The position numbers and the translations under genes are program-made. Positions 528 through 6,117 of a stretch of 10,369 nt of DNA are shown piece by piece. Under the pieces are notes generated by a model. That model was not told the DNA's origin and made no database searches. It was given only the letters and a program-made list of their open reading frames with translations. The DNA comes from a virus. Lineage: Duplodnaviria; Heunggongvirae; Uroviricota; Caudoviricetes. How positions within the stretch are numbered: position 1 is the stretch's first letter; every line of letters begins with the position of its first letter. Location: IMG/VR virus record IMGVR_UViG_2675903352_000018, positions 1 to 10,369 of that record. The stretch is one strand, 5' to 3'.

Positions 528-824
528 TCAGAATTGCATATCAATTTGCTTAGAGTCCCCGGCGGCCACCGGGGATTTTTTCTTTGTGATTTCATCAAGC
601 GCATACTTAAAAGCCCTGCTAATCGGACTGATGTCTGATGCCATTCCGAAAGCACACAAGACCGAAGCAATAAATCTCCAGTCCGTTCTGCTTATCTTCG
701 ATTCATGACAGCCAATCATCTTTGCCAGACCGCGCTGGGTAAGCGTTGACAGGTTGATGAGTAAATCTGTTTCTGCGCGATCAATTTCTCGCTGTGTTAG
801 CTTGCTGTAACTTGCTTGTGCCAT
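528..824 (-). CDS. cII: CII-family transcriptional activator (lambda CII / P22 C1 analogue)
   Basis: 98-aa ORF between cro and O on the same strand. Same length class and architecture as lambda CII, with a conserved C-terminus (..KKSPVAAGDSKQIDMQF here, ..KKRPAATERSEQIQMEF in lambda). Confidence 0.85.
   Translation of the reverse strand: MAQASYSKLTQREIDRAETDLLINLSTLTQRGLAKMIGCHESKISRTDWRFIASVLCAFGMASDISPISRAFKYALDEITKKKSPVAAGDSKQIDMQF
802..815 (+). promoter_or_regulatory. Candidate P_RE -35 region: CII-binding tetrad repeat TTGC-N6-TTGC
   Basis: ttgctgtaacttgc at 802..815, overlapping the start of the cII coding region and oriented toward cI, as for lambda P_RE. No -10 element was mapped confidently. 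Confidence 0.5.
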
Positions 825-887
825 TTGTTAATTTTCCTATATTGATATATAGCGGCACACCCAGTGGATTTGCCGCTGATGTTTGCT

Positions 888-926
888 CACCCGGTTAGAG
901 GTGAAAGGCCAGAACTGTTAAAGAGC
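888..926 (-). promoter_or_regulatory. nutR site (boxA plus boxB hairpin) between cro and cII
   Basis: On the minus strand: boxA GCTCTTTAA (plus coordinates 918..926), then boxB hairpin TCACCTCTAACCGGGTGA (888..905) with loop CTAACC. The same boxA and loop recur at nutL. A further palindrome agcggca..tgccgct (851..877) lies downstream and may be part of tR1. Confidence 0.6.
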
Positions 927-933
927 AATTTAC

Positions 934-1119
934 TTATGCCGCTTGGCGGTAAGCACTTTCTTGATACTTCAGAGCGCCAGCTGTAACGATTTCCAATCGA
1001 TAGGCGTCTTTCTCTGGGATAACTTCTTTCCACTGAGAGACTGCTGCATCGCTAATGCCTAGTGCTTTAGCAACAGCACGCTGGGTTCCGAAGTGGTCAA
1101 TAACATCTTTTTTGTACAT
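934..1119 (-). CDS. cro: Cro repressor (P22 Cro-like)
   Basis: 61-aa ORF divergent from cI, MYKKDVIDHFGTQRAVAKALGISDAAVSQWKEV... with an HTH motif. Matches P22 Cro as I recall it. Confidence 0.9.
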   Translation of the reverse strand: MYKKDVIDHFGTQRAVAKALGISDAAVSQWKEVIPEKDAYRLEIVTAGALKYQESAYRQAA

Positions 1120-1131
1120 AGACTCGCTCCG

Positions 1132-1199
1132 AAATTAAAGAACACTTAAATTATCCACCAAAGGAATCTTAAGCCAAGTTTATTTAAGATGTCTTAACT
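1132..1199. promoter_or_regulatory. O_R operator region with divergent P_R / P_RM
   Basis: 18-bp P22-type operators built from ATTTAAG/CTTAAAT half-sites: attaaagaacacttaaat (1134..1151) next to cro, atttaagatgtcttaact (1182..1199) abutting the cI ATG, and a CTTAAG-centred site between them. A P_R -10 GATAAT lies on the minus strand at 1150..1155. The last operator directly abuts the cI ATG with no room for a Shine-Dalgarno, which suggests a leaderless cI mRNA as in lambda. Confidence 0.7.
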
Positions 1200-1850
1200 A
1201 TGAATACACAACTGATGGGTGAGCGTATTCGCGCTCGCAGAAAAGAACTCAAGATTAGGCAGGCTGCCCTTGGCAAGATGGTTGGCGTGTCTAATGTTGC
1301 TATTTCCCAATGGGAGCGATCTGAAACTGAGCCCAATGGCGAAAACCTATTGGCCTTAGCCAAGGCTTTGCAGTGCTCCCCTGATTACCTGTTGAAAGGA
1401 GAGGATAGTCTTTCAAACATTGCCTATCACAGCAGGCATGATCCAAGAGGTTCGTATCCTCTAATTAGTTGGGTAAGCGCAGGATGTTGGATGGAAGCTG
1501 TAGAGCCATATCATAGGCGTGCAATAGATAACTGGTACGACACAACGGTAGATTGTTCTGAAGACTCTTTTTGGCTCGACGTTAAAGGTGATTCAATGAC
1601 TGCCCCGGCAGGACTGAGTATTCCTGAAGGGATGATTATTCTCGTCGACCCAGAAGTCGAACCACGTAATGGAAAGCTGGTAGTCGCCAAACTTGAAGGA
1701 GAAAACGAGGCGACATTCAAAAAGTTAGTTATTGATGCCGGTAGAAAATTCCTGAAACCACTCAATCCACAATACCCAATGATTGAAATCAATGGGAACT
1801 GTAAAATCATTGGCGTTGTCGTTGATGCCAAGCTAGCAAACCTTCCTTAA
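1200..1850 (+). CDS. cI: CI-type repressor (HTH N-terminal domain plus LexA/S24-like autocleavage domain); P22 C2-like
   Basis: 216 aa. N-terminus MNTQLMGERIRARRKELKIRQAALGKMVGVSNVAISQWERSETEPNG matches P22 C2 as I recall it. The C-terminal domain has the GDSM serine motif (FWLDVKGDSMTAPAG) and a catalytic-lysine region (ATFKKL). Confidence 0.95.
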   Translation: MNTQLMGERIRARRKELKIRQAALGKMVGVSNVAISQWERSETEPNGENLLALAKALQCSPDYLLKGEDSLSNIAYHSRHDPRGSYPLISWVSAGCWMEAVEPYHRRAIDNWYDTTVDCSEDSFWLDVKGDSMTAPAGLSIPEGMIILVDPEVEPRNGKLVVAKLEGENEATFKKLVIDAGRKFLKPLNPQYPMIEINGNCKIIGVVVDAKLANLP

Positions 1851-1872
1851 GGGGCTTTCGCCCCTTTTTTAT
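1851..1872 (+). terminator. Rho-independent terminator after cI
   Basis: ggggc-tttc-gcccc stem-loop followed by TTTTTT immediately after the cI stop. Confidence 0.7.
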
Positions 1873-1938
1873 TTCCCGTTAAAAATCAAAGACAAACTAA
1901 ATTCGCGCCCATAAAATTAAGTTTTCTTCAAAATGCAC

Positions 1939-1967
1939 TTGACCAAAAATTAAGAGATCTTAAATTT
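1939..1967 (+). promoter_or_regulatory. P_L promoter with overlapping O_L operator
   Basis: -35 TTGACC at 1939..1944, about 17 bp spacer, then an A/T-rich -10 (taaatt). An 18-bp palindromic operator aattaagagatcttaaat (1948..1965) overlaps the spacer. A further operator-like site lies near 1913..1934. Confidence 0.6.
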
Positions 1968-2012
1968 AAGCCGTCAGCAGGAGGCTGGAAGCCAAACGGA
2001 ACAGATTGGCAG

Positions 2013-2052
2013 GCTCTTTAACATCGACGAACTCTCAACCTAACCGTTGAGA
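2013..2052 (+). promoter_or_regulatory. nutL site (boxA plus boxB hairpin)
   Basis: boxA gctctttaa (2013..2021). boxB hairpin tctcaac-ctaacc-gttgaga (2033..2052) has the same CUAACC loop as nutR. Sits between pL and N as in lambda. Confidence 0.6.
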
Positions 2053-2162
2053 CCAGAACTTGAGTGGTTTTGGGGATGGCGCGAATTGCAGCTGCAAGAC
2101 AGCGATCGAGAAGATAAGCACCTCGACGCGTCATGCGCCAAAGCCACTTAAAGGAGACCATC

Positions 2163-2468
2163 ATGGTAACCATTGTCTGGAAAGAATCCAAAGGTACGGC
2201 AAAAAGCCGCTACAAAGCTCGCAGAGCAGAACTTATTGCCGAGCGACGCAGTAATGAAGCACTGGCGCGAAAAATTGCGCTAAAGCTCTCTGGTTGCGTC
2301 AGAGCAGACAAAGCAGCATCACTAGGAAGCCTTTGCTGCAAGAAGAAAGAAGAAGTTGTTCGAAAAAATAGAAGTATTTATTACAAGGATTCAAACCCAT
2401 TAGGAAACAAAATACATGCAGTCCAAAAAATAAAATTGTACAGTAAACTACCGTACGGTGCTTATTGA
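2163..2468 (+). CDS. N: N-family transcription antiterminator (phi21-type arginine-rich motif) with a chimeric C-terminus created by the insertion at 2386
   Basis: RBS aaggag (2151..2156) then ATG at 2163. MVTIVWKESKGTAKSRYKARRAELIAERR contains the phi21 N boxB-binding ARM as I recall it. The track's upstream ATG at 2133 lacks an RBS. The last 27 codons lie inside the AT-rich insert. Confidence 0.85.
   Translation: MVTIVWKESKGTAKSRYKARRAELIAERRSNEALARKIALKLSGCVRADKAASLGSLCCKKKEEVVRKNRSIYYKDSNPLGNKIHAVQKIKLYSKLPYGAY
2376..2385. repeat. Left copy of 10-bp direct repeat ATTTATTACA flanking the insert in N
   Basis: Identical 10-mer at 2376..2385 and 2848..2857. Deleting one copy plus the intervening 462 bp restores an uninterrupted N reading frame. 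Confidence 0.8.
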
Positions 2469-2470
2469 GT

Positions 2471-2809
2471 ATGCTTATGGTGAAAAAGACTATTTATGTT
2501 AATCCTGACCGCGGACAAAACAGAAAAGTATCTGATAGAGGTCTTACATCTCGAGACAGGAGGAGAATAGCGAGATGGGAAAAGAGGATAGCATATGCAT
2601 TAAAAAACGGTGTAACACCTGGATTTAATGCTATAGATGACGGTCCTGAATATAAGATTAATGAAGACCCAATGGACAAAGTTGACAAAGCATTAGCAAC
2701 ACCATTTCCTCGCGATGTCGAAAAAATTGAAGATGAAAAATATGAGGATGTAATGCACAGAGTTGTTAATCACGCTCACCAACGAAATCCAAATAAAAAA
2801 TGGTCATAG
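2471..2809 (+). CDS. Hypothetical protein encoded inside the AT-rich insert (moron); no recognisable family
   Basis: ATG at 2471 lies 2 nt after the N stop (tgagtATG), so it is translationally coupled. 112 aa: basic N-terminal half (KVSDRGLTSRDRRRIARWEKR), acidic C-terminal half (EDPMDKVDK...DVEKIEDEKYED). Followed directly by an intrinsic terminator. The alternative start at ATG 2477 is not excluded. Confidence 0.6.
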   Translation: MLMVKKTIYVNPDRGQNRKVSDRGLTSRDRRRIARWEKRIAYALKNGVTPGFNAIDDGPEYKINEDPMDKVDKALATPFPRDVEKIEDEKYEDVMHRVVNHAHQRNPNKKWS

Positions 2810-2829
2810 CCCACTTCGGTGGGTTTTTT
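2810..2829 (+). terminator. Rho-independent terminator at the 3' end of the insert
   Basis: cccac-ttcg-gtggg stem-loop followed by TTTTTT, one nt after the stop of the 2471..2809 ORF. Confidence 0.7.
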
Positions 2830-2847
2830 ATTGGCTGAACTAACCGA

Positions 2848-2934
2848 ATTTATTACAGCAAGCCACGCAGTGAAATGGGTGTGACTTGTGTTGGTCGCCA
2901 GAAAATGAAATTAGGCAGCAAACCACTTATTTGA
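2848..2934 (+). pseudogene. N: Displaced original 3' end of N (right direct-repeat copy plus last ~27 codons)
   Basis: Reads ..IYYSKPRSEMGVTCVGRQKMKLGSKPLI then stop, closely resembling the lambda N C-terminus (..YSKPGERGITCSGRQKIKGKSIPLI). It is in frame with N 2163..2385 once the insert is removed, and has no start codon of its own. Confidence 0.75.
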
Positions 2935-2942
2935 GGTGAGAT

Positions 2943-3413
2943 ATGACAAAATCATGGAGCGTACCTTTTCCTGAATCAGAAACTGAACATGATGGAATGC
3001 CTGTTTTCTGGAGATTCCAGGCGACAGTTGAAGAAGATGGGATAAAAATATTCGCACTTCAATATATAGCTTTTCATCAGACAGAGCATTATGCATGGTT
3101 GGTTCCTGCGCATTGGATTGTTAATTTTAAACCAGCACCAAATCAGTGGTTACAGGAATGGAAACAAAGGAGAAATAGATATGCAATTAAGAAAGTAGCA
3201 AAAAATGCAGAAAGATCTTTTGCATTCCCAACGAAGAAACTTGCCATTGAGAGTTTATTGCGCCGGAAGAAATACCATTTAATGAGAATCAAACAAGATT
3301 TGGCTGTTGTATCAACTCTTGTTGATGGGATGAAGAATATTGATACATCAACACCAGATATTGAATATAACTTTGGGCACAACCAAGAAACAGAAAATTG
3401 GGTATTTTATTAG
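2943..3413 (+). CDS. Hypothetical protein at the N-proximal accessory position (where lambda has ral/sieB)
   Basis: 156-aa ORF with RBS gaggtga 5 nt upstream of the ATG, starting 9 nt after the original N stop. Soluble-looking, Trp-rich N-terminus, basic central segment (KQRRNRYAIKKVAKN..RRKKYHLMRIK). No family recognised. Confidence 0.7.
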   Translation: MTKSWSVPFPESETEHDGMPVFWRFQATVEEDGIKIFALQYIAFHQTEHYAWLVPAHWIVNFKPAPNQWLQEWKQRRNRYAIKKVAKNAERSFAFPTKKLAIESLLRRKKYHLMRIKQDLAVVSTLVDGMKNIDTSTPDIEYNFGHNQETENWVFY

Positions 3414-3427
3414 TACGAGTAAGCACT

Positions 3428-3455
3428 GTGTATTCATTCCAACGAGTGAATACAC
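3428..3455. repeat. Perfect 9-bp inverted repeat with 10-nt spacer in the intergenic region
   Basis: gtgtattca-ttccaacgag-tgaatacac. Could be an RNA hairpin or a protein-binding palindrome. Confidence 0.4.
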
Positions 3456-3517
3456 GGAGCAATGTCGCTCGTAACTAAACAGGAGCCGACTTGTTCTGAT
3501 TATTGGAAATCTTCTTT

Positions 3518-3545
3518 GCCCTCTAATGTGAGGGCGATTTTTTTC
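3518..3545 (+). terminator. Rho-independent terminator upstream of ea10
   Basis: gccctc-taatgt-gagggc stem-loop followed by gatttttttctg. Confidence 0.65.
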
Positions 3546-3562
3546 TGTGAGGATATGAACAG

Positions 3563-3931
3563 ATGTCAAACATCAAAAAATACATCATTGATTACGACTG
3601 GAAAGCATCAATAGAAATTGAAATCGACCATGACTTAATGACAGAGGAAAAACTTCACCAGATTAATAATTTCTGGTCAGACTCTGAATACCGACTCAAT
3701 AAACACGGCTCTGTATTAAATGCTGTATTAATCATGCTGGCGCAACATGCTCTGCTTATAGCAATTTCAAGCGACTTAAATGCATATGGTGTTGTGTGTG
3801 AGTTCGACTGGAATGATGGAAATGGTCAGGAAGGATGGCCTCCAATGGATGGTAGCGAAGGAATAAGAATTACCGATATCGATACATCAGGAATATTTGA
3901 TCCAGATGATATGACTATCAAAGCCGCCTGA
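3563..3931 (+). CDS. ea10: Ea10-like protein (lambda ea10 homologue)
   Basis: 122 aa, MSNIKKYIIDYDWKASIEIEIDHDLMTEEKLHQINNFWSDSEYRL... Matches lambda Ea10 in length and sequence as I recall it, and occupies the lambda position just upstream of cIII. Confidence 0.8.
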   Translation: MSNIKKYIIDYDWKASIEIEIDHDLMTEEKLHQINNFWSDSEYRLNKHGSVLNAVLIMLAQHALLIAISSDLNAYGVVCEFDWNDGNGQEGWPPMDGSEGIRITDIDTSGIFDPDDMTIKAA

Positions 3932-4003
3932 GCGCGGCGTTACCGCATACCAATTACGCTTCACTCGAGGCGTTTTTCGTTATGTATAAATAAGGAGCAC
4001 ACC

Positions 4004-4168
4004 ATGCAATATGCCATTGCAGGGTGGCCTGTTGCTGGCTGCCCTTCCAAATCTTTACTTGAACGAATTACCCGTAAATTACGTGACGGATGGAAACGCC
4101 TTATCGACATACTTAATCAGCCAGGAGTCCCGAAAAATGGATCAAACAATTATGGCTATCCAGACTAA
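4004..4168 (+). CDS. cIII: CIII protein (FtsH inhibitor that stabilises CII)
   Basis: RBS taaggag (3991..3997). Translation [54 protein letters not shown] (54 aa) is nearly identical to lambda CIII as recalled. Below the ORF-track length cutoff. Confidence 0.9.
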   Translation: MQYAIAGWPVAGCPSKSLLERITRKLRDGWKRLIDILNQPGVPKNGSNNYGYPD

Positions 4169-4301
4169 ATTCACTATCGCCACTTTTATTGGCGATGAAA
4201 AGATGTTTCGTGAGGCCGTCGACGCTTATAAAAAATGGATATTAATACAGAAACTGAGATCAAGCAAAAGCATTCACTACCCCCCTTTCCTGTTTTCCTA
4301 A
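4137..4301 (+). CDS. kil: Kil (host cell-division inhibitor), extended relative to lambda
   Basis: ATG at 4137 overlaps the cIII 3' end by 32 nt, as in lambda. [47 protein letters not shown]... The track ORF 4011..4301 is the same frame with a spurious upstream extension. Here the frame runs to 54 codons, against 47 for lambda Kil as recalled. Confidence 0.8.
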
Positions 4302-4355
4302 TCAGCCTGGCATTTCGCGGGCGATATTTTCACAGCCATTTTCAGGAGTTCAGCC

Positions 4356-4652
4356 ATGAACGCTTATTACATTCAGGATCGTCTTGAGGCTCAGAGCTGG
4401 GCGCGTCACTACCAGCAGATCGCCCGTGAAGAGAAAGAGGCAGAACTGGCAGACGACATGGAAAAAGGCCTGCCCCAGCACCTGTTTGAATCGCTATGCA
4501 TCGATCATTTGCAACGCCACGGGGCCAGCAAAAAAGCCATTACCCGTGCGTTTGATGACGATGTTGAGTTTCAGGAACGCATGGCAGAACACATCCGGTA
4601 CATGGTTGAAACCATTGCTCACCACCAGGTTGATATTGATTCAGAGGTATAA
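4356..4652 (+). CDS. gam: Gam (RecBCD inhibitor), short GamS form
   Basis: 98 aa, [60 protein letters not shown]... essentially identical to lambda GamS. RBS aggag upstream. Confidence 0.95.
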
Positions 4653-4657
4653 AACGG

Positions 4658-5443
4658 ATGAGTACAGCACTCGCAACGCTGGCTGGGAAGCTGGCTGAAC
4701 GTGTCGGCATGGATTCTGTCGACCCACAGGAACTGATCACCACTCTTCGCCAGACGGCATTTAAAGGTGATGCCAGCGATGCGCAGTTCATCGCATTGCT
4801 GATCGTCGCCAACCAGTACGGCCTTAATCCGTGGACGAAAGAAATTTACGCCTTCCCTGATAAGCAGAACGGCATCGTTCCGGTGGTGGGCGTTGATGGC
4901 TGGTCCCGCATCATCAACGAAAACCAGCAGTTTGATGGCATGGACTTTGAGCAGGACAATGAATCCTGCACATGCCGGATTTACCGCAAGGACCGTAATC
5001 ATCCGATCTGCGTTACCGAGTGGATGGATGAATGCCGCCGCGAACCATTCAAAACCCGCGAAGGCAGAGAAATCACGGGGCCGTGGCAGTCGCATCCCAA
5101 ACGGATGTTACGTCATAAAGCCATGATTCAGTGTGCCCGTCTCGCCTTCGGATTTGCTGGTATCTATGACAAGGATGAAGCCGAGCGCATTGTCGAAAAT
5201 ACCGCATACACTGCAGAACGTCAGCCGGAACGCGACATCACTCCGGTTAACGATGAAACCATGCAGGAAATTAACACTCTGCTGATCGCCCTGGATAAAA
5301 CATGGGATGACGACTTATTGCCGCTCTGTTCCCAGATATTTCGCCGCGACATTCGTGCATCGTCAGAACTGACACAGGCCGAAGCAGTAAAAGCTCTTGG
5401 ATTCCTGAAACAAAAAGCCACTGAACAGAAGGTGGCAGCATGA
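4658..5443 (+). CDS. bet: Bet (Red-beta single-strand annealing recombinase)
   Basis: 261 aa, [68 protein letters not shown]... matches lambda Beta in sequence and length. Confidence 0.97.
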
Positions 5444-6117
5444 CACCGGACATTATCCTGCAGCGTACTGGGATCGACGTGAGAGCTGTCGAACAGGGAG
5501 ATGATGCGTGGCACAAATTACGGCTCGGCGTCATCACAGCTTCAGAAATTCACAACGTAATAGCAAAACCCCGATCAGGAAAGAAGTGGCCTGACATGAA
5601 AATGTCCTACTTCCACACCCTGCTGGCTGAGGTTTGCACCGGTGTGGCTCCGGAAGTTAACGCTAAGGCTCTGGCCTGGGGAAAACAGTACGAGAACGAC
5701 GCCAGAACCCTCTTTGAGTTCACTTCCGGCGTGAATGTTACTGAATCCCCGATCATCTATCGCGACGAAAGTATGCGCACCGCCTGCTCTCCCGATGGTT
5801 TATGCAGTGACGGCAACGGCCTTGAGCTGAAATGCCCGTTTACCTCCCGGGATTTCATGAAGTTCCGGCTCGGTGGTTTCGAGGCCATAAAATCGGCTTA
5901 CATGGCCCAGGTGCAGTACAGCATGTGGGTGACACGAAAAGATGCCTGGTACTTTGCCAACTATGACCCGCGCATGAAGCGTGAAGGCCTGCATTATGTC
6001 GTGATTGAGCGGAATGAAAAGTACATGGCGAGTTTTGACGAGATGGTGCCGGAGTTCATCGAAAAAATGGACGAGGCACTGGCTGAAATTGGTTTTGTAT
6101 ATGGGGAGCAATGGTAA
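5440..6117 (+). CDS. exo: Exo (Red-alpha 5'-3' dsDNA exonuclease)
   Basis: 225 aa, [36 protein letters not shown]... matches lambda exonuclease. Start overlaps the bet stop (ATGA). Confidence 0.97.

What the first reader, a model, noticed from the sequence alone, without database searches (positions are those of the whole stretch)
2943..3413. Unrecognised 156-aa protein immediately downstream of N in the ral/sieB hotspot
It has a strong RBS and starts 9 nt after the original N stop, so it is the first pL-operon gene after N in the pre-insertion arrangement. It does not resemble lambda Ral or SieB or any family I can name from the sequence; it appears soluble, with a Trp-rich N-terminus and a strongly basic central segment. 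Together with the 112-aa ORF it forms a two-gene accessory island between N and the conserved ea10-cIII-kil-gam-bet-exo block.
Basis: inference. Interest (0 to 1): 0.65.

Follow-up and report, generated by a model that had tools for sequence, protein, structure and literature searches.

The report
HK97 gp45-family early accessory protein
The ORF is a real, strongly conserved gene, identical to the catalogued but never characterised gp45 of phage HK97 (L0079 of Shiga-toxin phage 933W); it encodes a small basic phage-only protein with no recognisable fold, sitting in the exchange slot after gene N where lambda carries its anti-restriction gene ral.

The parts
2943..3413 (+). CDS of the 156-aa protein (stop included); HK97 gp45 / 933W L0079 / PHROG 1636 family
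   Evidence: ORF list. 99.4-100% nt identity to HK97, 933W and Huey. PHROG 1636 E 2.7e-112. Purifying selection. AF2 model pLDDT 95.7 with the 84-sequence alignment.
2933..2939 (+). Shine-Dalgarno GAGGTGA, overlapping the TGA stop (2932-2934) of the N 3' remnant; 5 nt (2938-2942) between the GAGGT core and the ATG
   Evidence: Read directly. The same SD-ATG precedes orf28 in lambda DE3 (junction printout).
2842..2945 (+). Left conserved flank of the cargo slot: last ~90 nt of 21-type N, then SD and ATG. In HK97 and 933W the part from 2885 on is a non-coding 58-nt spacer after their own N stop.
   Evidence: 96% identical to DE3 N 3' end through the ATG. Shared with Huey from 2854 and with HK97 and 933W from 2881. 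CDS coordinates.
3423..3545 (+). Right conserved flank of the slot: strong hairpin (about 3426-3457, inside a compound stem 3411-3477) and an intrinsic terminator (stem 3516-3537 plus T-run). It belongs to the backbone, not to the cargo.
   Evidence: Homology to lambda 34045 onward and to DE3 resumes at 3423. Also present in HK022 and mEp235 without gp45. Terminator scan. RNA fold z = -5.0. Annotated as a putative terminator in HK97.
2357..2841 (+). Context, not part of the gp45 module: 485-nt nun cassette inserted into N, holding nun CDS 2471-2809 (112 aa from the ATG) and its terminator 2808-2833
   Evidence: DE3 comparison. HK022 match 2351-2826 at 96.6%. PHROG 5632 Nun-like. Terminator scan.
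2133..2356 (+). Context: 5' part of the phage-21-type N gene. The ORF runs on to 2468 through HK022-derived sequence, giving a chimeric 111-aa product.
   Evidence: PHROG 271 N-like E 1e-31. 98.2% identity to DE3 over 641-2356.

Best explanation
Identity (near certain): this is the HK97 gp45 / 933W L0079 gene. It is a single-ORF cargo in a precisely bounded exchange slot of the lambdoid pL operon, between the N stop with its SD-ATG and the ral-ea10 intergenic hairpin and terminator. Mechanism (inferred, untested): the gene has no promoter of its own and lies behind terminators, so it is made only when pL transcription is antiterminated, early in lytic growth or after induction. Its product is a stand-alone 18.6-kDa soluble protein of a phage-only family. 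It has a long three-stranded beta-sheet, a 33-residue helix and a family-wide basic face (beta4 plus the first two-thirds of the helix). I propose it uses that face to bind a conserved host component, either a nucleic acid or an acidic protein surface. This would modulate or neutralise a host function to the phage's advantage (host takeover or counter-defence), as its operon neighbours Ral, CIII, Kil and Gam do. It needs no phage partner and is dispensable for the phage's core life cycle.
For: Identity. Slot anatomy and exact replacement of orf28-ral. Other cargo in the same slot. Lytic, pL-dependent expression: no sigma-70-like site on the + strand between the nun terminator and the ATG. The ATG is 8 nt after the N stop in Huey and 58 nt after it in HK97 and 933W. 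Homologues in Cronobacter, Pectobacterium and Brenneria are bracketed by intrinsic terminators. Not lysogeny-specific: a 64%-identical homologue is in Salmonella siphophage NX263, between structural gene blocks. Remote homologues are in Pantoea myophage LIET2, Klebsiella phage phi_KPN_H2 and Vibrio phage PvVp04. Stand-alone: no conserved neighbour across 12 or more contexts, though it is always in early operons among recombination, methylase, regulator and small accessory genes. No domain fusions. Conserved target implied: strong purifying selection over the whole length. Basic face as family hallmark: net charge of segment 79-120 has median +9 (range +3 to +12) in 84 members, and K87, R108/K109, the aromatic at position 23 with R24, G33, T47 and A101 are conserved. 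Confident, compact fold. Established knowledge of lambda and P22 pL-operon accessory proteins (Ral, CIII, Kil, Gam, Abc1/2): most act on host proteins.
Confidence: 0.4

Rival explanations
1. It is a nucleic-acid-binding regulator of phage (or host) gene expression, such as an early transcription factor or an RNA-binding modulator, using the conserved basic beta4-helix segment to bind DNA or RNA.
For: Segment 79-120 is basic in every member (median +9) and family pI has median 8.9. In some phages it is adjacent to regulators: after a Cro-like HTH and before pRha in PvVp04, before ParB-HTH and MarR genes in NX263, and directly after N in lambdoid phages. It is often the first gene of its operon.
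Confidence: 0.22
2. It is a prophage-encoded defence gene (superinfection exclusion or abortive infection, SieB-like in role) expressed from the lysogen.
For: The N-ral region of lambda and P22 also houses sieB. The gene here lies next to the exclusion gene nun. It is widespread in E. coli prophages (598 genomes).
Against: No promoter-like site was found upstream, and the nun terminator lies between nun and the gene. No PADLOC defence model matches. There is no TM segment, unlike SieB. Close and remote homologues occur in phages without lysogeny modules in the regions seen. gp45 and nun assort independently.
Confidence: 0.1
3. It is an accessory factor of phage DNA metabolism (recombination, replication or DNA-end protection) working with the Red/Erf/RecT-type module.
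For: It is usually in the same operon as exo/bet/gam, erf, or RecT/YqaJ/SSB/RdgC and DNA methylases. A basic surface is compatible with DNA binding.
Against: It occurs with at least four unrelated recombination systems and also with none nearby (NX263, L030), so it has no fixed partner. Its position within the operon varies: after N, before xis, or elsewhere.
Confidence: 0.12
4. It is specifically a functional analogue of Ral, alleviating type I restriction. This is a sub-case of the best explanation.
For: It replaces orf28-ral base-for-base in an otherwise 96-98% identical imm21 backbone.
Against: There is no sequence similarity to Ral. In phi296 ral and gp45 sit in tandem (N-hyp-hyp-ral-gp45-kil), which argues against redundancy. 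The slot also holds unrelated cargo, including an IS903 in HK022, so position alone says little.
Confidence: 0.08
5. It is not a functional gene: a chance ORF, or the true gene lies on the opposite strand (79-aa ORF 3143-3382, minus strand).
For: Minus-strand ORFs of 45-79 aa overlap the region.
Against: The plus-frame protein is conserved across genera with saturated synonymous change. There are 87 HMM hits and a pLDDT 95.7 model.
Confidence: 0.01

Closest known systems
HK97 gp45 (AAF31125) = 933W L0079 (AAD25424) = phage Huey CDS0035 = E. coli WP_000167595; PHROG 1636
   Same: It is the same gene: 99.4-100% nt identity over all 471 nt, a full-length PHROG 1636 match, and the same position downstream of N.
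   Different: Nothing of substance differs. Here the upstream N is interrupted by a nun cassette. In all these records the product is 'hypothetical protein', with no tested function.
Remote phage families PHROG 13631 / 25384 (e.g. Vibrio phage vB_Vp_PvVp04_M UOL47401, Pantoea phage LIET2 gp069)
   Same: They share length (about 130-155 aa), secondary-structure register, the conserved motifs (aromatic-R, G33, [E/Q]T47, K87, A101, RK108-109), the basic middle and the acidic C-terminus. They are also early-operon genes.
   Different: They share only 19-26% identity, lack the N-terminal 18 residues (SWxVPFPES), and many have a different C-terminal motif (VPxT...YFxFD instead of FGHNxETExWxF). Their function is also unknown.
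Lambda Ral (restriction alleviation)
   Same: It occupies the same slot, delimited by the same flanks. It has the same expression logic (pL, N-dependent) and is likewise small, soluble and non-essential.
   Different: There is no sequence similarity. Ral is 66 aa against 156 aa here. The two coexist in tandem in phi296. Anti-restriction activity was not tested for gp45.
Lambda/P22 SieB (abortive-infection exclusion protein in the N-ral region)
   Same: It lies in the same neighbourhood of the pL operon.
   Different: By established knowledge SieB is a membrane protein expressed in lysogens. gp45 has no hydrophobic segment, no similarity to SieB and no promoter detected.
HK022 Nun (the neighbouring 112-aa ORF)
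   Same: It is adjacent in this window and in 138 E. coli genomes.
   Different: It is an unrelated protein and a separate module with its own terminator. It is a characterised arginine-rich-motif termination factor. The two genes assort independently.

Membership tests
HK97 gp45 / PHROG 1636 family | Full-length, high-scoring match to the family profile and to the type sequences | tested here: met
   PHROG 1636 E 2.7e-112, residues 1-156 on profile positions 1-156 of 156. 99.8% nt identity to HK97 gene 45 and 99.4% to 933W L0079.
HK97 gp45 / PHROG 1636 family | Location in an early phage operon | tested here: met
   Downstream of N and upstream of ea10-cIII-kil-gam-bet-exo. Homologues sit in early operons in other phages.
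Lambda Ral (restriction alleviation) | Sequence similarity to Ral | tested here: not met
   tblastn of gp45 against lambda 32800-35700 gave a best E of 1.3. No Pfam or PHROG Ral hit.
Lambda Ral (restriction alleviation) | Same genomic slot between N and ea10 | tested here: met
   It replaces orf28-ral exactly in an imm21 backbone.
Lambda Ral (restriction alleviation) | Alleviates type I restriction and enhances modification | not testable with these tools
   This needs EOP assays. Tandem ral-gp45 in phi296 argues against simple redundancy.
SieB-type exclusion protein | Membrane protein with sequence similarity to SieB | tested here: not met
   Maximum 19-residue hydropathy is 0.56, so no TM segment. 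No similarity to the lambda sieB region in any frame.
SieB-type exclusion protein | Own promoter and expression in the lysogen | tested here: inconclusive
   The consensus scan found no + strand promoter-like site in 2826-2942. Expression was not measured.
Moron (promoter-gene-terminator cassette) | Own promoter upstream and own terminator downstream | tested here: not met
   No promoter-like site was found. The downstream terminator 3516-3545 belongs to the backbone flank, which is shared with lambda, DE3, HK022 and mEp235 lacking the gene.
Known anti-phage defence systems (PADLOC-DB v2) | Match to a defence-protein model | tested here: not met
   The only hit is a chance-level Cas1_II match, E 0.018 and 12.4 bits.
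Known anti-defence families (DefenseFinder anti-defence models) | Match to an anti-defence model | not tested
   That library is not available here. Indirect evidence: PMC12502783 reports only MTase, Ral and Gam in phages phi296, phi315 and phi345, which carry this gene.
AP2/integrase-arm-type or ribbon-helix-helix DNA-binding domains (lead recalled from the motif RSFAFPTKKLAIESL) | Profile match or structural match to those folds | tested here: not met

The most novel reading that the evidence does not exclude
gp45 is the type member of a structurally new, phage-only family of single-protein early effectors. The confident fold has no PDB neighbour. Its conserved basic face would neutralise a conserved host function, possibly a defence system or a nucleic-acid transaction not yet known to be targeted by phages. 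Since most Stx-converting phages sampled carry it, as do 11% of complete E. coli genomes, it would be a new and epidemiologically widespread counter-defence or takeover mechanism.
Probability: 0.3. Interest if true: 0.65.

Novelty: already known. Interest (0 to 1): 0.35.

Why it matters
As a sequence the gene is old: HK97 and 933W were both sequenced around 1999-2000. It has nevertheless remained a "hypothetical protein" in two of the best-studied lambdoid phages. It is carried by 50 records named as Stx-converting phages, plus 933W, Min27, BP-4795 and H-19B, and by 598 of 5,426 complete E. coli genomes. This analysis adds three usable facts. First, it belongs to a wider phage-only superfamily across Gammaproteobacteria, including phages with no lysogeny module in the regions seen. 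Second, with that alignment the fold is predicted confidently and has no solved relative. Third, the gene is cargo in an exchange slot with base-precise borders, so nature has already built near-isogenic pairs (lambda imm21 with orf28-ral versus this backbone with gp45) that make a phenotype screen straightforward. If it proves to be a counter-defence or takeover factor, it would bear on Stx-phage host range and induction biology. If it has no phenotype, it remains one more conserved ORFan.

Tried and rejected
1. Pfam, NCBIfam, PADLOC and PDB-sequence searches with the single protein and with the profiles A1 and A2 gave nothing above chance.
4. AP2/Arm and RHH leads, suggested by the motif 'RSFAFPTKKLAIESL', found no profile support even at E<=10.
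5. Two long hits in the exhaustive search, P0059 (940 aa, DUF7507 repeats) and P0081 (444 aa repeats), are compositional or repeat artefacts, not family members.
6. The palindrome at 3426-3457 was considered as a cis site for the protein. It was rejected because it lies in the backbone flank, shared with phages lacking the gene, and is absent beside divergent homologues. It has no Rfam match.
7. Co-function with the 112-aa ORF was rejected, since that ORF is Nun and assorts independently.
8. Literature searches (gp45+HK97, L0079, accession numbers, PHROG id, lambdoid anti-defence hotspot, HK97 early operon) found no functional report. The accessory-gene screen of PMC12373910 does not list this sequence in the supplements held.
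9. The search for related loci with the wide alignment A2 failed because no stretch was conserved enough.

Full report
**Observation**

The window is the early-left arm of an imm21-type lambdoid prophage. It holds cII and cro on the minus strand. On the plus strand it holds cI, N, ea10 (DUF2528), cIII with the Lambda_thermo element, kil, gam, bet, exo, then xis and int.

The ORF at 2943-3413 (+) encodes 156 aa from an ATG. Reading directly: a TGA at 2932-2934 ends the 3' remnant of N, GAGGTGA lies at 2933-2939, and the ATG follows at 2943.

The product is soluble (maximum 19-residue hydropathy 0.56) and basic (pI 9.07). It is Trp-rich, with 7 Trp, six of them in residues 5-73. Residues 61-120 carry a net charge of +13.

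The ORF is certainly coding. Twenty-two full-length homologues at 55-99% identity share 40 invariant columns. Non-synonymous divergence is 0.17-0.30 while synonymous sites are saturated.

**What it is**

The DNA is 100% identical to phage Huey CDS0035, 99.8% to HK97 gene 45 and 99.4% to 933W L0079. Eighty phage records carry it, most of them Stx-converting phages. It occurs in 598 of 5,426 complete E. coli genomes, always annotated "hypothetical protein".

It matches PHROG 1636 ("unknown function") end to end. It matches nothing in Pfam, NCBIfam, PADLOC or PDB sequences. No paper in the searchable library mentions its function. So it is unrecognised in function but not new as a sequence.

**Family**

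The close family is narrow. It comprises about 25 full-length 90%-identity clusters among 5.8 billion proteins, all from Enterobacterales. A pattern scan, which gives a lower bound, found it in 7 of 185,579 species genomes.

An exhaustive HMM search found 87 hits. About 70 of them are remote homologues (19-26% identity) of 130-155 aa. They come from phages and prophages of Vibrio, Pantoea and Klebsiella and from marine Gammaproteobacteria. All 84 aligned members hit PHROG 1636, and many also hit PHROGs 13631 and 25384, both of unknown function. None hits a Pfam family, and none is fused to another domain.

The shared features are:
- an aromatic-Arg pair at positions 23-24, then G33 and [E/Q]46-T47;
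- K87, an invariant A101 and R108-K109;
- a middle segment (79-120) with median net charge +9 (range +3 to +12), followed by an acidic C-terminus.

**Structure**

With only the close family the AlphaFold model was poor (pLDDT 59). With the 84-sequence alignment it became confident (pLDDT 95.7, pTM 0.83). The model has three long antiparallel strands (19-30, 33-46, 50-55), two short helices, a short strand (83-86) and a 33-residue helix (98-130).

**Anatomy of the locus**

Compared with lambda DE3 (imm21), the window breaks down as follows:

| Window | Relation to DE3 |
|---|---|
| 641-2356 | 98.2% identical |
| 2357-2841 | 485-nt insert replacing 13 nt of N |
| 2842-2945 | 96% identical (N 3' end, SD, ATG) |
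| 2946-3422 | gp45 ORF, replacing the 309 nt of orf28-ral |
| 3423-4613 | 98% identical |

The right flank corresponds to lambda 34045 onward. It contains a very stable hairpin and an intrinsic terminator. It is also present in HK022 and mEp235, which lack the gene.

The gene is thus a single-ORF cargo in a slot with base-precise borders. The same slot holds other cargo elsewhere:
- a 207-aa ORF in mEp235;
- a 129-aa ORF in HK633;
- 83-aa and 149-aa ORFs in Gally;
- an IS903 in HK022.

In HK97 and 933W the left flank survives as a 58-nt non-coding spacer after their own, different N gene. In Huey it is the true N 3' end. In phi296 ral and gp45 lie in tandem, so they are not simple alternatives.

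**The "112-aa ORF"**

This ORF is HK022 Nun (PHROG 5632, E 4.5e-71; 96.6% nt identity to HK022 nun). It arrived with its own terminator on the 485-nt insert that splits the 21-type N. The spliced N is colinear with the DE3 N in one piece.

Among complete E. coli genomes, gp45 occurs in 593, nun in 219, and the two are adjacent in 138. HK97, 933W and Huey have gp45 without nun. mEp235 and mEpX1 have nun without gp45. The "two-gene island" is therefore two independent modules that happen to be neighbours.

**Context elsewhere**

Homologues sit in varied early-operon positions:
- after N in Cronobacter and in a metagenomic lambdoid contig;
- immediately before xis-int in Pectobacterium and Brenneria;
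- upstream of RecT/YqaJ/SSB in Rosenbergiella;
- among small ORFs between recombination or methylase genes and int in marine prophages;
- after a Cro-like HTH gene in a Vibrio phage;
- as the first gene of a small operon (followed by ParB-like and MarR genes) between structural blocks in Salmonella siphophage NX263, at 64% identity.

No neighbour is conserved. Several copies are bracketed by intrinsic terminators. No promoter-like site precedes the gene here.

**How it most likely works**

What is shown:
- it is an early-operon gene without a detectable promoter of its own;
- it stands alone, with no conserved partner and no fusions;
- it is strongly constrained;
- it carries a conserved basic face;
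- it is not restricted to temperate phages.

What is inferred: it is produced from antiterminated pL transcripts early in lytic growth. It then binds a conserved host component (a nucleic acid or an acidic protein surface) to the phage's benefit. Most pL-operon accessory proteins (Ral, CIII, Kil, Gam, Abc) act in this way. I give this 0.4.

The rivals are:

| Rival | Confidence | Main weakness |
|---|---|---|
| DNA/RNA-binding regulator | 0.22 | No known DNA-binding fold; no cis site travels with the gene |
| DNA-metabolism accessory | 0.12 | No fixed partner |
| Prophage defence gene | 0.10 | No promoter, no TM segment, no PADLOC hit; present in phages with no lysogeny module in the regions seen |
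| Specific Ral analogue (sub-case of the best explanation) | 0.08 | Tandem occurrence with ral |
| Not a gene | 0.01 | Refuted |

**Verdict**

The gene is an already catalogued, uncharacterised accessory ORF rather than a discovery, so the overall interest is moderate to low (0.35).

The residual novelty lies in three things: a confident fold with no solved relative, a wider phage-only superfamily, and a cleanly bounded exchange slot. Together they make this widespread Stx-phage gene an easy target for a functional screen.

Noticed in passing
window 2133-2934: The phage-21-type N gene is split by a 485-nt HK022-type nun cassette (2357-2841, replacing 13 nt). This leaves a chimeric 111-aa N ORF (2133-2468) whose last ~38 codons come from the HK022 nun leader, plus a 3' N remnant (2842-2934). 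The same arrangement occurs in the deposited complete phage genomes mEp235, mEpX1, Kapi1, PA28 and Stx1a phages, and nun itself is present in 219 complete E. coli genomes. How these phages antiterminate pL transcription with an N that lacks its native C-terminus is unexplained.
   Followed up: partly
window 3411-3545: The 3' flank of the ORF folds into a very stable compound hairpin (3411-3477, perfect core 3426-3457) followed by an intrinsic terminator (3516-3545). MFE is -50.2 kcal/mol, z = -5.0 against shuffles, with no Rfam match. It corresponds to lambda 34045-33923 (ral-ea10 intergenic region), and is retained in HK022 and mEp235 as the right border of the cargo slot.
   Followed up: partly
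window 2842-2945 and 3423 onward; L031 (lambda DE3), L032 (mEp235), L033 (HK633), L034 (Gally), L036 (HK022): The position just after the N stop is a hypervariable cargo slot with base-precise borders (shared SD-ATG on the left, hairpin and terminator on the right). It holds orf28-ral, gp45, a 207-aa ORF, a 129-aa ORF, 83-aa and 149-aa ORFs, or IS903 in different phages. None of the other cargo ORFs has an assigned function.
   Followed up: partly
L035 (phage vB_EcoP_phi296) 2103-3938: ral and the gp45 gene occur in tandem (N-hyp-hyp-ral-gp45-kil). PHANOTATE called the gene 18 codons short (138 aa), although the N-terminal SWxVPFPES motif is conserved in the close family.
   Followed up: no
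window 3991-4049: The lambda cIII thermoregulator RNA element (Rfam RF01804, 85.5 bits) sits at the cIII start, as expected for a lambda-like cIII.
   Followed up: no
L005, L006, L007, L012, L016, L017 (around the homologue at about 5001-5480): In Cronobacter, Pectobacterium and Brenneria prophages the homologue is bracketed by intrinsic terminators, one 20-30 nt upstream of its RBS and one right after its stop. It thus forms a promoterless, terminator-flanked cassette that would be read only by antiterminated polymerase.
   Followed up: no
L027 (Salmonella phage vB_SpuS_NX263) 3501-5901; L009-L011: A 64%-identical homologue heads a small operon (ParB-like HTH protein, MarR-like protein, a 'DNA pol III beta'-annotated ORF) wedged between two oppositely oriented structural-gene blocks of a 46.6-kb siphophage. 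No lysogeny genes are visible in the region seen.
   Followed up: no
window 641-2356: The immunity region (cII, cro, cI, pL, N 5' part) is 98.2% identical to the imm21 region of lambda DE3. In related STEC O26/O103/O111 genomes the prophage is integrated next to a DUF1175 gene (L004).
   Followed up: no
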